Source: Verrucomicrobiota bacterium (GTDB taxonomy: Bacteria > Verrucomicrobiota > Verrucomicrobiia > Limisphaerales > CANJXF01). Taken from it: DNA of 40,819 nucleotides. The notes under the pieces were generated by a model that saw nothing but the letters and a program-made list of their open reading frames with translations, was not told where the DNA came from and searched no databases. Position numbers and translations under genes: made by a program. Position 1 is the first letter of the stretch; the number at the start of each line of letters is the position of its first letter. The DNA lies in assembly GCA_038214755.1 (NCBI GenBank), contig JBBQRQ010000043.1, forward strand, positions 1 to 40,819, in the 5' to 3' direction. Of the stretch, positions 7,128-14,953 are shown piece by piece.

Positions 7128-7454
7128 TCAATTCATTTCAAGCAACGTAGCGAGGGCGTCGTGTATTTGGTCCATTTCCGTGGAGGTTGCCTCACCCAGT
7201 TTGCGGATGAATCGTTCTTTGGCAGCCGCTTTGATTTGGTCCACCACTGCGACGCTAGGTTTGCCACTGCTACGAATCGCGATGAGCAGCGGAAATTCCG
7301 TTCGATTATGTGCGGTGGAAAGCGGAACGACAATCAGCGTGCGACGAAGCCGATTGAACGGCTCTCCTGAAAGGATGATGGCTGGCCGCGTCTTTTTGAT
7401 TTCTGAGCCGAGCGAAGGGTCGAAGTTGACCAGCCAGAGTTCGCCCTGCTTCAT
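7128..7454 (-). CDS. PemK/MazF family toxin
   Basis: GELWLVNFDPSLGSEIKKTRPAIILS...VVPLST...DQIKA. Confidence 0.93.
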   Translation of the reverse strand: MKQGELWLVNFDPSLGSEIKKTRPAIILSGEPFNRLRRTLIVVPLSTAHNRTEFPLLIAIRSSGKPSVAVVDQIKAAAKERFIRKLGEATSTEMDQIHDALATLLEMN

Positions 7455-7666
7455 GCTTCGTGGTCGTCAAATTTTTCCCACTCAGCCATCTCTCGTTGCA
7501 AAACGTGAAGATGATTGACGCGACGACAAACGGCCTCGAGCGATTCTGGCGAAGGCCGCAATCTTTTGCGCAGGAGATCCGTTACCACGGCGGAACGGTT
7601 TCCCGCCGGGACAGTTTTGCGGAAGCGATGACCCACTTCGTCCGGTAAGGTAAACGTCATTTTCAC
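7451..7666 (-). CDS. ribbon-helix-helix antitoxin
   Basis: MTFTLPDEV...GNRSAVVTDLLR; ATGA overlap with the toxin. Confidence 0.8.
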   Translation of the reverse strand: MKMTFTLPDEVGHRFRKTVPAGNRSAVVTDLLRKRLRPSPESLEAVCRRVNHLHVLQREMAEWEKFDDHEA

Positions 7667-7762
7667 TCCGGCAATATGGGGGCGGCGAAATGAAACTCAA
7701 TTAAAAAGCCGCGTGTTGTTTTCAAAGCTCGCTCGTTGAATCGGTCCCTGAAGCAACGTGAA

Positions 7763-8020
7763 TCATTTCCGATCAGCCTTTTCAACTCGGGTAATTTTCA
7801 CTTCTTTAACGGCGTGATCAGCCCAAAAGGTGAGCGCAAAATCTCCGACAATCTTGATTTGAACTTCCCGGCCCACTTCGTCCTTTTCTTCGTAATCGCC
7901 TTTTCGGTTCGGGTCATGCGCTAGGTCTTCGAGAAAAGCCAAAATCTTCTGGCGCTGGCTGGGTCTGGGCCGATCCAGTTGAAGAATTTCAATGGAGATT
8001 AAGACCTTGTAAGGCGGCAA
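7763..8020 (-). CDS. RelE/ParE-like toxin (divergent)
   Basis: 85 aa, YKVLIS...KILAFLEDLAHDP...IVGDFALTFWADHAVKEVKI; 3 bp downstream of a small partner gene. Confidence 0.65.
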   Translation of the reverse strand: MPPYKVLISIEILQLDRPRPSQRQKILAFLEDLAHDPNRKGDYEEKDEVGREVQIKIVGDFALTFWADHAVKEVKITRVEKADRK

Positions 8021-8023
8021 AAC

Positions 8024-8218
8024 TCAGTCTTTCCATTTTTCCCGCAGTTCATCCAGGGAAAGCCAATGCGAAGGATGGTTGTCATCCATGCGGGCGGCGA
8101 TTTCACGACGGATATCTGGATCGCGCTGATGCCGAAGATGAACTAAAAATGCGGCCAAATAGTCCTGATGTTCACCAGGCATTTCGGCCAACTCGCTTTT
8201 CATCGTCTCCAAATCCAT
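8024..8218 (-). CDS. putative antitoxin (addiction-module-like)
   Basis: 64 aa MDLETMKSELAEM...WLSLDELREKW, directly upstream of the RelE-like gene. Confidence 0.65.
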   Translation of the reverse strand: MDLETMKSELAEMPGEHQDYLAAFLVHLRHQRDPDIRREIAARMDDNHPSHWLSLDELREKWKD

Positions 8219-8270
8219 GTGAAAACAATTAGCGGATCGAAAAGGCCTTGTCCAGCCAGCCGTTTTCTTG

Positions 8271-8439
8271 GGGTGTGATTTAAACTGGCGGTCAGAACAA
8301 GAGCGCCAGAGGGCTGGCGCACTCCAAGACGCTTCGCGCCATTCATGCACCATCGAAATTCGCGCGAGCGTCTTGGAGTGCGGCGGCCCTCCGCCGCTTT
8401 TAACAGCACCGGTAGTGACCGCCACTTGAAATCACACCC
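8271..8439. mobile_element. MITE with 24-bp TIRs and 9-bp target duplication, carrying a REP doublet
   Basis: TIRs GGGTGTGATTT(AAAC/CAAG)TGGCGGTCA; direct repeat GTTTTCTTG at 8262-8270 and 8440-8448; internal CACTCCAAGACGCT...AGCGTCTTGGAGTG doublet at 8299-8401. Confidence 0.85.
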
Positions 8440-9480: not shown

Positions 9481-10980
9481 TTACGCCAAAATCTCTTTGA
9501 CGACTTTTCCATGCACGTCGGTCAGCCGGAAACGGCGTCCTTGAAATTTGTAAGTCAGCCGCTCGTGATCGATGCCGAGCAGGTGCAACATGGTCGCGTG
9601 AAAATCGTGAACGTGGACGCCATCCTTCGCGATGTTGTAACCGAATTCATCCGTCTCGCCAAAAACCGTTCCCGCCTTTACTCCGCCGCCGGCCATCCAG
9701 ATTGAAAAGCAGCGCGGATGATGATCACGTCCGTAATCGGTCGCCGTCAGTTTTCCCTGCGAATAATTGGTGCGACCAAACTCGCCGCCCCAAACCACGA
9801 GCGTGTCTTCCAGCATCCCGCGCTGTTTCAAATCCTGGATGAGCGCGGCGGACGCCTGATCGGTTTCGCGGCATTGGGTGCGCATTCCGCCGGGCACATT
9901 GCCGTGATGGTCCCAGCCCTGATGATAAAGCTGAATGAATTTTACGCCGCGTTCAGCGAGCCGCCGGGCTTGCAAACAATTCGCGGCAAACGTCCCCGGC
10001 TTCCGGGAGTCGGCTCCATAAAGTTCGAAAATGTGATCAGGTTCACTCGAAACATCGACCACGTCGGGAACGGAAGTTTGCATCCGAAACGCCATTTCGT
10101 ATTGGCTGATGCGCGAATGGATTTCGGCGTCGCCTAGGTTTTGCTCGGCAGCAATGTGCAATTCGTTCAGTCGATCCAATTGCAAACGTCGCGATGTCGC
10201 GCTGATGCCATCGGGATTGCTCAAGTAGAGAACCGGGTCTTTGCCGGAACGAAATTGCACGCCTTGATAACGCGACGGCAAAAAACCGCTGCCCCACAAA
10301 CGCGCGTAAAGTGGTTGATCGACTTTGCCCGGCGTGATGAGAACGACAAAGGCCGGAAGATTCTCGTTGTCGTTGCCCAGCCCATAACTCAGCCACGCGC
10401 CCATGCTCGGGCGACCGGAAAGTTGCGAGCCGGTTTGCAGAAAAGTAATTGCCGGATCGTGATTGATCGCCTCGGTGAACATTGAGCGCACGATGCATAA
10501 ATCATCGGCAATCTTGGCGGTGTGAGGAAGAAGTTCGCTCATCCATGCGCCGGATTTTCCGTGCTGTTGAAATTTAAAAATCGAACCCGCCATTGGGAGC
10601 GACGACTGGTTGCCGCTCATGCCAGTGAGACGTTGTCCCATGCGAACGGAATCGGGAAGCTGTTGGCCATTGCGCTCGTTGAGCAACGGTTTATAATCGA
10701 AGGTCTCCAATTGCGAAGGGCCGCCCGCCATGAACAAATAAATAACTCGTTTCACTTTCGGCGGAAAATGAGGCGCGCCGAGAATTCCCTGTCCGGGAGA
10801 ACTTGCGAGAGCACGAACGGGATTAATTAAATTCGCGAGCGCAATTCCACCCAAGCCCATACCGAAACGATTGAGGAACGCGCGACGATTCATTCCATTG
10901 AGTGGCATCGGTCCGGTGCAAAGTGGAAGGCGGGATACGGGATCCGAGATGCGGGATTCGGGATGGGGGAAACGGTTCAT
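9481..10980 (-). CDS. DUF1501 family protein (Tat-like N-terminus)
   Basis: [57 protein letters not shown]; the first ~29 aa are partly repeat-derived, so the start may be later. Confidence 0.9.
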
Positions 10981-11384
10981 TTCGGGCTCATGTGTTGTTC
11001 TTCAACTGCTTGAATAAACCTATTCAATTTTCCACCGAGTCGATTAAGCAAATCCATCAATCGAAGATACAAAGTCTCGTCCTGCAATGATTGGCAGTCT
11101 TTCAGCGTCTCGATGTGATCAATGGTTTCGTCGCAAGAAGCGTGGGCGAAAACCAAAAAACGAATGTATTCCTGTTTATATCGTCGTCGTCCGAAACCTT
11201 CCACGATGTTTGATCTGATAGACTTCACGGAGCGCCGCACCTGGCTTCCTGTCTCGAACATCTCGAATTTCGGCAGCGCAGTGAGCGTCATGGCGTGAAC
11301 CTCCTTCGTGGCCTCTCGAGCCAGTTTCCAAATTTCTAAATCTCGGTATGTCATATCTCGAATCTCGAATCCCGCATCTCGAAT
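10931..11384. repeat. inverted heptamer arrays flanking the four-helix-bundle gene
   Basis: CGGGATN-like array 10931-10964 and complementary array 11355-11384; perfect 16-bp IR CGAGATGCGGGATTCG at 10945-10960 and 11366-11381. Confidence 0.88.
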
Positions 11385-11387
11385 CAT
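10977..11387 (-). CDS. four helix bundle protein (23S rRNA IVP / S23 / bAvd-like family)
   Basis: [10 protein letters not shown]...[51 protein letters not shown]; alternative start at 11354. Confidence 0.92.
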
Positions 11388-14300
11388 CTCTCCATCACAA
11401 ACTCGTCATGGTTCATCAACGTGTTTATCAGAACGGTCATGGCGGCAACTTCATCTTCCGGAAGTTTTGTGTCGCGCGAATGTTCGCCGGTCGCCAGATA
11501 TTTTTTGGCCGCTTCCCCATCCGTCGTGAAAATTTCCAATTGCTCCTGATAAAGTTGGCGGAGAATTTCTCGTTCGCGCGCTTGCGGAATTCGGCCAATC
11601 ACCAGACGGAAAACGTTTTCGATGCAGCTATTAAGGTCGTCCGTTTTTTCCCGCAGAATTTTTTCGGCCAGCACCCGGCCAGCCTCGATAAATTGCGGAT
11701 CGTTCAACAGCACCAACGCTTGCAGCGGTGTCGTGGTTGGCTCGCGCCTCGCCGTGCAAACTTCGCGAGACATCGCATCGAACGTCAGCATCGACGGCGG
11801 GGGCGCGGTGCGCCGCCAAAAAGTATAAAGGCTGCGCCGATAAAGTTTCTCGCCTTTGTCCTGCGCGTAGGTCTTGCCGGTGCCGGATTGCTCCCAAAGT
11901 CCAGCGGGCTGATATGGCTTCACACTCGGTCCGCCGATTTTCGGCGAAAGCAATCCGCTCGTGGCCAGCGCCGCATCGCGAATTTCTTCGGCTTGCAAAC
12001 GATGTTTCGGCCCGCGCGCGAGCAAACGGTTGTCGGGATCAGCGGCGACTAATTCCGGCGGCGCAACCGATGACTGCCGATACGTGGCTGACGTGACGAT
12101 CAGTTCATGCAATTTTTTTACGTTCCAACCGCTCTCGACAAAATTTTTCGCCAGCCAATCGAGAAGTTCCGGATGCGTCGGCAATTGTCCCTGGCTGCCG
12201 AAATCTTCCGGCGTCGCCACCAGCCCGCGACCGAAGTGCATTTTCCAAATCCGGTTTACCACCACCCGCGCAGTGAGCGGATTGCGCGGATCAACCAACC
12301 ATCGTGCGAGGCCCAGCCGATTTTTCGGATACTTTTTTGGAAAAGGAAAAATGCCTTCCGGCGTTCCGGATTCGACCGCGTCACCCGGCGCATCGTAAGC
12401 GCCGCGTTTCAAGACGAAGGTGGGACGGTGCGCCGTCATTTCTTTCATCACCATGATCTCGCGGATGTCATTGACGAAATTGTTTTCTGCGTCGCGCAGT
12501 TTTTTCAATTCGGCCAGCCCGTTTTGATATTCGGGATCAACGCGATTGAGAAAAAGCGAGAAGAGATCTTTGTTTTCATTCGGTGGGGCGAGGCTCCGCC
12601 GAGCCTTGTCCGTCGCGGCAGGCGACGCGAGTGAAACAAACCTCTTATTCGTCTGTGAATGGATACTTGCTCTGCTCCCCTGGCTTCGCTCGAAATTTTG
12701 CTCGACGGAGTCTCGCCCTACCACTTCTTGCCCCACTACTTTTTTGAAATGTGCTTTCACCTCAAAGCCCGTCAAACAGCGATCAAAAACCTCGAACTCA
12801 TCGATCAATCCATTTTTGAATCCGGAATCGCGGAAACGGGCCGCGAGTGTGAGCGGAATATTTCCAACATCCGCGTCGCCCCACTCGGAGCGATACAAAA
12901 TATCTTTAAATAAATTGTCGCGGATAATTTCGATCTCGGCTATTTGGCCATTGAGAAAAATTTTCAAACCCGCCGCGCGGCTCGAGCCATCGTAAGTAAT
13001 CGCAAGATGCGTCCATTCATTTTGCGGAAGCGATTCCTTCGCACGAATCGAAATCGCGTTTCCCGGCCAGAAATGAATCAGGGCAAAATTTGGTTTTGCA
13101 TCTTCCAAAATTAACTGGTAGCCACGGCTGCCGGCGTCTGTCCAGGAACGCGAATGATGAAAGATCACGGCGCGTTTTTGTTTCTCGGTGGGCTTGAGCC
13201 AGAGCGCAAATGAAAACGGATCAGTGCGTTTGAAATCGCCGATGCCTTTGCTAACGACGGAATTTTCGCCATCAAATTTCAAAGCGTTGCCGATACGACC
13301 TTCGACTTGTTTCGGATTTTCAACGAGTGACGCTTGAATCTTTCCATACACATCCGGCGTCTTGCCGTCCGCGATTTGCTCAAAAGAAAAGTGAGCGACA
13401 GGATGATCGGTATATTGGAGGAGACCTGTCGGAAGCGAATTATCGTGGGTAGCATCTGCCTCCGGCGGGTGCGTGAAGACAGTCTTCGTTTTCTTAAGAC
13501 CCGAAGCGATTTCGCACCCGCCGGAGGCAGATGCTACCCGGAGTTTGTCTTCCCATCGCGCGAAATTTTCTTTCGCCGACTTTTCGACGCGCTTCAATTT
13601 CATTTCCTGTTCGGAAATTTGCTTTTTCAGCGCCGCGTGTTTTTCCTTCTCCCCATTTTTGTAGAGCAAAAGAGTCGGCGAAGGCGTGGCGTGAGTGAAG
13701 TGCGAGTAAAGTCCCGACTCGTCGATGTTGTTGAAGAAGGCGGAGAGCCGATAATAATCCTTCTGTTTGATCGGGTCGTATTTGTGATCGTGACAGCGCG
13801 CGCATTCGAGGGTCAGACCGAGAAACGCCGTGCCGAAAGTGTGAACGCGATCCGAAACATATTCATTGCGAAATTCTTCTTCGATGCTCCCGCCTTCGTT
13901 CGTCTGGCGATGCAAGCGGTTAAAAGCGGTCGCCAAAATTTGTTCATCCGTTGCGTCCGGAAATAAATCCCCGGCGATTTGCCAGAGGATAAATTTATTG
14001 TAGGAAAGATTTTTGTTGAATGCGCCAATCACCCAATCGCGCCAGGCCGACATATCGCGGTCCACGTCGGATTGATAACCGTACGTGTCGGCGTAACGGG
14101 CGAGGTCGAGCCAATCATTGGCCATGTGTTCGCCGTAAGCGGTCGATGCGAGAAATTGTTCCACCAATTTTTTGTAGGCATGGGGCGAAGTGTCTTTGAG
14201 AAAATCGTCAACCTGTTTGAGCGATGGCGGCAAGCCGGTCAAATCAAACGCTAGTCGGCGAATCAAAGTTTCTTTAGTGGCTTGGGGAACGGGCTGAAGG

Positions 14301-14953
14301 TTTTCTCTCTGCAATCGCGCGAGCACAAATCGATCAATGGAATTTTGCGCCCAATCATTTTTTATTTTCGGCACGGAAATTTTCTTCGGCGCGAGAAAGG
14401 CCCAATGCGTTTTGTATTCTGCGCCTTCCTCAATCCATTTGCGAATCAGCGCGATTTCCTCTGAACTTATCTTTAAATTGCTATCAGGCGGGGGCATTTG
14501 TTCATCAGGATCGACGGAAAGGAGGCGGCGAACGAGTTCGCTCTTTTCCGGTTTGCCCGGGACGATGGCGCGGAGTTCCGATTTTTTACCACGAGCGGCG
14601 AGCGCGCCTTCCGCCGTGTCCAACCGCATATCCGCTTTGCGCGTTTTCGGGTCGGGCCCGTGACATTTGAAACAGCGGTCCGAAAGAATCGGGCGAATTT
14701 GAAAATTGAAATCGACTCTCTCAGACGCTGGACGTTCCGTCGCTTTGGCAGCAAGGCTGGTGATGCCTAAAATAATTAAAGCTCTGTAGAGCACGATGGA
14801 GTTTAACCCCACACTTGAGCGGCGAAAAATGAAAATGTTGAAACGACCGCTCTTCTCAAACCTGGTTGCAATGCGGCGGCCCGTCTCAGGGCGTGGGAAC
14901 CCAGCCTCTTCCTGGAATGTATTCGCGGCTGCCGGAATTGGATTTGCAGCCAC
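11384..14953 (-). CDS. planctomycete cytochrome c / DUF1549 / LamG / DUF1553 multidomain protein
   Basis: [14 protein letters not shown] (CxxCH), [21 protein letters not shown], LamG-like [33 protein letters not shown]; true start probably nearer 14794. Confidence 0.9.
12582..12722. repeat. REP doublet (family B) in-frame inside the DUF1553 gene
   Basis: GGTGGGGCGAGGCTCCGCCGAGC ... GCTCGACGGAGTCTCGCCCTACC, 141 bp; largely intergenic sister at 33079-33165. Confidence 0.88.
13447..13539. repeat. REP doublet (family A) in-frame inside the DUF1553 gene
   Basis: GGGTAGCATCTGCCTCCGGCGGGTGCG ... CGCACCCGCCGGAGGCAGATGCTACCC, 93 bp; arms identical to the intergenic copy at 3705-3874. Confidence 0.92.

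What the first reader, a model, noticed from the sequence alone, without database searches (positions are those of the whole stretch)
10931..11387. Four-helix-bundle gene framed by inverted heptamer arrays and inserted into an operon
Seen: the gene sits between the DUF1553 and DUF1501 genes with ATGA overlaps at both ends. It is flanked by complementary heptamer arrays with a perfect 16-bp IR, and these arrays are translated as N-terminal extensions ([11 protein letters not shown] and [12 protein letters not shown]). Known: DUF1553 and DUF1501 genes are usually adjacent, and this family includes 23S rRNA intervening-sequence proteins and is related to bAvd of diversity-generating retroelements. 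Inference: the arrays could pair into a stem that loops out the gene in mRNA or ssDNA, making this a small mobile or intervening cassette with no recognised recombinase.
Basis: partly seen in the sequence, partly recalled or inferred. Interest (0 to 1): 0.8.

Follow-up and report, generated by a model that had tools for sequence, protein, structure and literature searches.

The report
Repeat-armed four-helix-bundle gene cassette
A small gene of the "ribosomal-RNA intervening sequence protein" family sits between two operon genes inside mirror-image runs of a 7-base repeat, is present or absent at this spot in relatives, and its protein likely recognises its own repeat through one residue that changes along with one repeat base, which would tie a large unexplained protein family to unexplained bacterial repeats.

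Summary
Observation confirmed. A PF05635/TIGR02436 gene (10977-11387, minus strand) lies between DUF1553 and DUF1501 genes. It has ATGA overlaps and inverted GATNCGR arrays with a perfect 16-bp core.

The layout is general: 128 of 138 homologous loci have inverted arms against 5 of 98 controls, and paralogues in this genome use other units. This scan has reported the class before on other DNA (328 notes).

The junction is empty in five relatives (two keep one-unit scars) and filled in four other loci, so this copy is most likely an old insertion lost repeatedly. Another junction holds a different cassette in a relative.

The mRNA stem is physically possible, but I found no sign that it is selected: G·U 205 vs A·C 227 (terminator control 9 vs 1), and no unit-order matching between arms. 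Instead, residue 71 tracks unit base 6 (His-G 104/106; Glu-C 7/7 in three clades), with exceptions and few independent contrasts.

Best reading: a self-recognising, promoterless cassette whose arms are binding sites for its own Avd-like protein. The mobilising enzyme, the nucleic acid bound and any RNA processing are untested.

The parts
11384..14953 (-). Host gene upstream: PSCyt1-DUF1549-LamG-DUF1553; its TGA stop overlaps the first ATG of the cassette (true start not determined)
11384..11387 (-). ATGA stop/start overlap; corresponds to the single ATGA of the empty allele
11355..11385 (-). 5' arm: four GATNCGR units plus GAT, ending directly before the second ATG
10977..11354 (-). Four-helix-bundle gene (PF05635/TIGR02436), 125 aa; extendable in frame to the ATG at 11387
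11142..11144 (-). His71 codon; the residue tracks base 6 of the repeat unit across homologues
10977..10980 (-). ATGA overlap of the cassette stop and the likely DUF1501 start (inside the predicted loop)
10930..10964 (-). 3' arm: five complementary units (35 nt), in frame inside the DUF1501 5' end in this genome
9481..10980 (-). Host gene downstream: DUF1501; alternative in-frame ATGs at 10908 and 10893

Best explanation
This is an optional gene cassette, a four-helix-bundle gene between two inverted heptamer arrays at a stop/start junction, and its protein likely binds its own repeat units base-specifically as a predicted Avd-like ring, which would make the arms recognition sites rather than a selected mRNA stem. 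SHOWN: the anatomy; the patchy presence; a different cassette and a deletion derivative at one junction in relatives; the fold; the statistical link between residue 71 and unit base 6. INFERRED: (1) it has no promoter of its own and rides on the operon's transcript and translational coupling, with stop-free arms keeping it harmless; (2) protomers read one unit each through the helix-3 face around residues 71/75/78; (3) the protein-arm complex is the mobile unit, moved at low rate by an unidentified host or trans-acting enzyme, and gene-less heptamer hairpins are its derivatives, as REPINs are to RAYT genes; (4) this copy entered the junction long ago and was lost imprecisely in at least two sister lineages. 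Whether DNA or RNA is bound is open; the strand symmetry leans to DNA or to a duplex.
For: Arms around homologues: 128 of 138 vs 5 of 98 controls. Both arms share one degenerate consensus GAT[G>A>T]CG[G>A], and unit order matches no better than shuffled (0.602 vs 0.597). G·U 205 vs A·C 227; gene-less hairpins 100 vs 94; terminator control 9 vs 1. Residue 71 is His in 103 of 106 G-unit and 0 of 25 C/T-unit loci; the next-best column has 14 errors against 3 (15 labels set by hand). With automatic labels on 166 rows: His-G 104/106, Glu-C 7/7 in three separate clades, Leu-T 17/19. Positions 71, 75 and 78 share one helix face. Fold: 2GSC Z 19.9, 2RLD 17.2, Avd 14.1-14.5. Avd holds flipped-out RNA bases in crevices between protomers (10.1101/2023.10.23.563531, section 8). 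Turnover: at the RND junction G008 is empty, G003 has a different cassette and G005 its internal deletion. Scars: G002 keeps a 5' unit at the stop (background 1 of 4301 genes) and G007 a 3' unit (25 of 4301). The GATNCGR array is essentially private to this locus in G000.
Against: No binding or mobility was measured. Only 2 independent contrasts lie on strongly supported branches. In the branch-level test residue 71 ranks third of 125, at z 2.4, behind positions 78 and 48. In the blind set, His went with A in 2 of 3 called loci, Arg went with T twice, and two uncalled loci (Phe, Tyr) show G by eye; the 28 of 28 non-His/non-G result is largely inheritance. One arm-matching test was nominally positive (position 4, own vs swapped 0.665 vs 0.61, p 0.007, kin not independent). 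No general target duplication: 12 of 137 vs 6 of 136 controls, with two clear cases. No RVT_1 was found in the 97%-complete genome, and none of 17 Y1 transposase hits has such arrays. The commonest gene-less family here (147 arrays) had no matching gene among the 11 own hits or the 23 relatives' loci read. The protein's net charge is only +2.
Confidence: 0.5

Rival explanations
1. mRNA intervening sequence: the arms pair in the operon transcript and RNase III cuts the stem, as for the 23S rRNA IVS, releasing the gene's RNA and splitting or tuning the polycistron.
For: A 24-bp stem is predicted in both MFE and centroid structures (duplex -43 kcal/mol). The Coxiella IVS has heptamer repeats at its RNase III site (PMC4990558, passages). 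Same protein family.
Against: No G·U bias and no unit-order matching; the antisense strand folds as well. Here the likely DUF1501 start lies inside the loop, so cutting would remove it. Arm placement relative to reading frames varies among relatives.
Confidence: 0.22
2. Domesticated translational regulator: the ring binds the 5' arm in mRNA, represses its own translation and gates coupling to the next gene; mobility is incidental.
For: The arms hug the upstream stop (22 of 35 measured within -2 to +9 nt) and often end just before a start codon. MacGregor proposed translational control for TAACTGA arrays ending near start codons (PMC4679880, abstract and passages). The gene shows more third-position than first- or second-position changes against L042-L044 and L122.
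Against: Close relatives lack it at the same junctions; host genes are functionally unrelated; the unit is private to this locus in G000.
Confidence: 0.15
3. No recognition: the arrays are slippage-grown ends of a passively inherited insert, and the residue-base link is shared ancestry.
For: Few independent contrasts and several exceptions; arm copy number ranges from 2 to 16.
Against: Glu71-C arises in three separate clades. Within the His-G clade about five unit switches coincide with loss of His71 and one does not (read from the tree). Both arms switch unit together.
Confidence: 0.13

Closest known systems
ORF-bearing intervening sequence (IVS) of 23S rRNA, e.g. Coxiella burnetii S23p IVS (PMC4990558; passages read)
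   Same: Same protein family, about 450 nt, terminal inverted repeats, tandem heptamers just upstream of the ORF, patchy distribution
   Different: Here it sits in a protein-coding operon at a stop/start junction, both arms are heptamer arrays, no sense-strand pairing bias was found, and RNase III cleavage is untested
Avd of diversity-generating retroelements (10.1101/2023.10.23.563531; passages and section 8 read)
   Same: Same fold (Z 14.1-14.5, 10-12% identity); precedent for base-specific contacts between protomers
   Different: No reverse transcriptase, template repeat or variable repeat nearby; no RVT_1 found in G000
RAYT genes with REP/REPIN elements (recalled, not read here)
   Same: A gene flanked by inverted repeats, with many gene-less hairpins elsewhere in the genome
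   Different: The cargo is not an HUH transposase, the repeats are tandem heptamers, and 0 of 17 Y1_Tnp hits carry these arrays
Intergenic heptamer arrays: TAACTGA of Beggiatoaceae (PMC4679880; abstract and passages read); cyanobacterial STRR (recalled)
   Same: Arrays of 2-6 or more heptamers next to start codons, origin unexplained
   Different: A term search of that paper found no mention of intervening sequences, S23 or 23S, and it reports one inverted set

Membership tests
PF05635 / TIGR02436 four-helix-bundle protein | Profile score above curated cut-off | tested here: met
   87.7 vs 33.8 bits; 87.5 vs 24
PF05635 / TIGR02436 four-helix-bundle protein | Four-helix fold as in Xcc0516 | tested here: met
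   pLDDT 94 model; 2GSC Z 19.9, rmsd 1.2 over 115 residues
PF05635 / TIGR02436 four-helix-bundle protein | Homopentamer | not tested
   The complex predictor was not available; 2GSC and 2RLD each list five chains
23S rRNA intervening sequence | Located inside an rRNA gene | tested here: not met
   Lies between two protein genes; no credible Rfam match in 10700-11600
23S rRNA intervening sequence | Terminal inverted repeats able to form a stem of about 25 bp | tested here: met
23S rRNA intervening sequence | Excision by RNase III | not testable with these tools
   No RNA run was listed
Diversity-generating retroelement | Reverse transcriptase with TR/VR next to avd | tested here: not met
   Neighbours are DUF1553 and DUF1501; no RVT_1 found in G000
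Insertion sequence / MITE | Transposase or recombinase encoded by the element | tested here: not met
   The only ORF is PF05635
Insertion sequence / MITE | Target-site duplication | tested here: inconclusive
   ATGA..ATGA bounds L042 and L043, GTGA..ATGA bounds L044 and L122; longer duplications 12 of 137 vs 6 of 136 controls, one clear 29-nt case in L290
RAYT/REPIN | Y1 HUH transposase flanked by the repeats | tested here: not met
   0 of 17 Y1_Tnp hits have period-7/8 arrays within 250 nt

The most novel reading that the evidence does not exclude
PF05635 proteins are sequence-specific, ring-shaped readers of tandem heptamers with a simple residue-to-base code (His71-G, Glu71-C, Leu/Gln71-T). 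Each gene carries its own cognate sites as inverted arms and moves as a transposase-free element into stop/start junctions, seeding the hundreds of gene-less heptamer hairpins seen in bacterial genomes.
Probability: 0.3. Interest if true: 0.85.

Novelty: new variant of a known kind. Interest (0 to 1): 0.62.

Why it matters
PF05635 is a very large family of unknown function (2638 hits for this one query), and bacterial heptamer arrays have no known partner or origin. The pairing gives both a direct test: one 125-residue protein, one 7-base unit and one residue predicted to switch specificity. If it holds, it explains a common class of repeats, suggests where the DGR accessory protein Avd and the rRNA intervening sequences came from, and offers a possibly reprogrammable repeat-binding ring. 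This locus is one more member of a class the scan has already flagged many times. What it adds is the controlled negative on mRNA-stem selection, the scars of loss and a named candidate residue.

Tried and rejected
RNA evidence: no RNA holder listed. The one DNA run, possibly the source, has a single contig across the cassette and no joint skipping it; contigs drop rare forms, so this says nothing on excision. Viral contigs: no relative. Five units per arm as a pentamer signature: modes are 4-5 with a range of 2-16, not diagnostic. General target-site duplication: not found. Arg71-G: failed in L247 and L248. Co-orientation with neighbours by a crude long-ORF test: 39 of 76 same strand on both sides, inconclusive because shadow ORFs confound it. 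Recent arrival: rejected for this copy, since cassette identity to L042-L044 (72-77%) matches host-gene identity (76-79%). The paper on the free Avd structure was not held, so residue 71 could not be mapped on Avd's binding residues; the bioRxiv supplement (Fig. S14) that names them is closed. Literature searches found no paper linking this family to heptamer arms outside rRNA; one search was swamped by irrelevant hits, and subscription journals are not covered.

Full report
OBSERVATION. The ORF at 10977-11387 (minus strand) encodes a PF05635/TIGR02436 protein. It overlaps the DUF1553 gene's stop and the DUF1501 gene's first ATG by ATGA. Four GATNCGR units precede the second Met (11354). Five complementary units lie at 10964-10930, in frame in the DUF1501 5' end. 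The arms form a 24-nt inverted pair at 92% with a perfect 16-bp core. One contig of a public DNA run, possibly the source, spans the cassette without differences. The AlphaFold model (pLDDT 94) matches Xcc0516 (Z 19.9), BT_0352 (17.2) and Avd (14.1-14.5).

GENERALITY. The genome has 11 PF05635 hits. By a fixed test, 10 of 11 have an array on at least one side and 6 on both, against 61 and 2 of 400 control genes and 0 of 17 Y1 transposase hits. Different paralogue groups use different units. The genome holds 504 period-7 arrays against 10 after shuffling. Of 293 inverted array pairs (not deduplicated), 229 have loops under 150 nt and so no room for a gene. The GATNCGR unit of this cassette occurs essentially only here. 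I fetched 160 homologous loci (the best 80 of 200 and 80 of 401). After adding the window and dropping loci with short flanks and duplicates, 138 remained, and 128 have inverted arms against 5 of 98 control windows. They span several phyla and unrelated junctions. The scan has noted this class 328 times; those notes are leads, not support.

HISTORY AT THIS SITE. Of 30 DUF1501 loci examined, only the window's own carried the gene. In the orthologous clade, G007, G002, G021, G036 and G029 are empty; G030 has another upstream neighbour; G003 and G009 are cut by contig ends. The closest homologues, L042-L044 and L122, sit at the same junction. Filled alleles fall in two well-supported clades with empties between them. 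Cassette identity to those loci (72-77%) equals host-gene identity (76-79%). G002 keeps a 5' unit at the stop (background 1 of 4301 genes) and G007 a 3' unit (25 of 4301). I infer an old insertion lost imprecisely at least twice. Independent arrivals are not excluded, and the branching among L042-L044 differs between cassette and host trees, a weak hint of exchange. In L042-L044 a further ATG follows the 3' arm; in the window it has decayed and the cassette's own ATGA probably serves. So the arm-encoded peptides are incidental: the arrays are stop-free in all frames and fall in different frames or between genes in relatives.

TURNOVER ELSEWHERE. I checked four other cassette junctions in the family. 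None of my nine paralogue queries hit in 7, 9 and 9 relatives at three of them (6, 8 and 8 without the unpublished G009, on which no claim rests); several carry unrelated gene-less hairpins. At the RND junction G008 is empty with one ATGA, G003 carries a different cassette with other arms, and G005 has an internal deletion of that cassette. Related cassettes at 61-68% identity sit at different junctions. No general target duplication was seen (12 of 137 vs 6 of 136), though L290 has a 29-nt duplication of the downstream gene start. No reverse transcriptase was found in G000.

IS THE STEM SELECTED IN mRNA? The stem is predicted to form, but the signs expected of a selected RNA stem are missing. 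Sense-strand mismatches are G·U 205 vs A·C 227; gene-less hairpins give 100 vs 94; terminator-like hairpins, a small positive control of 46, give 9 vs 1. In 65 cassettes, unit order matches no better than shuffled (0.602 vs 0.597). Own versus swapped arms was positive only at position 4 (p 0.007, kin not independent), and composition tests were not significant. Both arms follow the same degenerate consensus. Some relatives have local hairpins at one end. This fits arrays of binding sites better than a conserved loop-out. It does not exclude an RNA duplex or RNase III cleavage, which is shown for the Coxiella IVS at its first heptamer (PMC4990558, passages).

DOES THE PROTEIN READ THE UNIT? Residue 71 is His in 103 of 106 loci with G at unit base 6 and in 0 of 25 with C/T; 7 loci with other units were set aside and 15 labels were set by hand. 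With automatic labels on 166 rows: His-G 104/106, Glu-C 7/7 in three clades, Leu-T 17/19, Gln-T 9/13, Tyr-A 3/4. Positions 71, 75 and 78 share a helix face. Against: only 2 independent contrasts lie on strong branches; the branch-level rank is third of 125 at z 2.4; and in 31 new loci His went with A twice and G once, Arg with T twice, and two uncalled Phe/Tyr loci show G by eye. It is a strong lead, not a proven code. Avd gives a precedent: all five protomers contact a stem-loop and flipped bases enter crevices between them (10.1101/2023.10.23.563531, section 8). Its supplement naming the residues was closed.

MECHANISM AND VERDICT. The most likely reading (0.5) is a promoterless, self-recognising cassette whose inverted arrays are sites for its own ring-shaped protein, tolerated at stop/start junctions, moved rarely by an unknown enzyme and decaying into gene-less hairpins. 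Rivals are an RNase III-processed mRNA intervening sequence (0.22), a domesticated translational regulator (0.15) and passive co-inheritance (0.13). The protein is a member of PF05635. The element is not an rRNA IVS, DGR, IS or RAYT by their defining features, but is built like the first and distributed like the last (RAYT/REPIN and STRR are recalled, not read here). Searches of the open library found no description of this layout outside rRNA. MacGregor's TAACTGA paper (abstract and passages) describes similar arrays without this gene. New variant of a known kind; interest 0.62.

Noticed in passing
G000:C22:39112-39693: A GxxExxY (PF13366) gene with 8-mer ACAGAGGC hairpins at its ends; the other two PF13366 genes (C14, C4) have similar 9-10-mer arrays by eye. 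A second protein family seems to use the same layout.
   Followed up: partly
L290 (G005:C19), around the PF05635 gene: The cassette is flanked by a 29-nt duplication of the start of the downstream gene, which looks like cas1 (name recalled, not tested).
   Followed up: partly
L295 (G003:C20:268-582): A PF05635 cassette appears to replace the middle of an integron-integrase-like gene (recognised by eye).
   Followed up: no
L288 (G007:C333): A 25-nt stretch of the 3' arm is duplicated upstream, as if the gene landed in an existing gene-less hairpin.
   Followed up: no
L204-L208, junction upstream of the aroA-like gene: Relatives carry different gene-less hairpins or an unrelated insert at the junction where G000 has a PF05635 cassette; a possible hot spot.
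   Followed up: partly
L299, L308, L309: PF05635 cassettes with AAATCGT arms in relatives, while G000 has 46 AAATCGT-family arrays and no such gene among its 11 hits.
   Followed up: no
window 7128-8425: A PemK/MazF toxin gene (7128-7454) with a small upstream ORF, and two further small ORFs (7763-8020, 8024-8425) with no family hit that look like another toxin-antitoxin pair.
   Followed up: no
window 12600-12750 and 13400-13500: The DUF1553 gene seems to contain low-complexity inserts (e.g. [14 protein letters not shown]..., [14 protein letters not shown]...) that may be in-frame palindromic elements.
   Followed up: no
G000:C6:29418-29627: A longer PF05635 paralogue carries complementary GTGGAC/GTCCAC repeats inside its own coding sequence instead of at its ends.
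   Followed up: no
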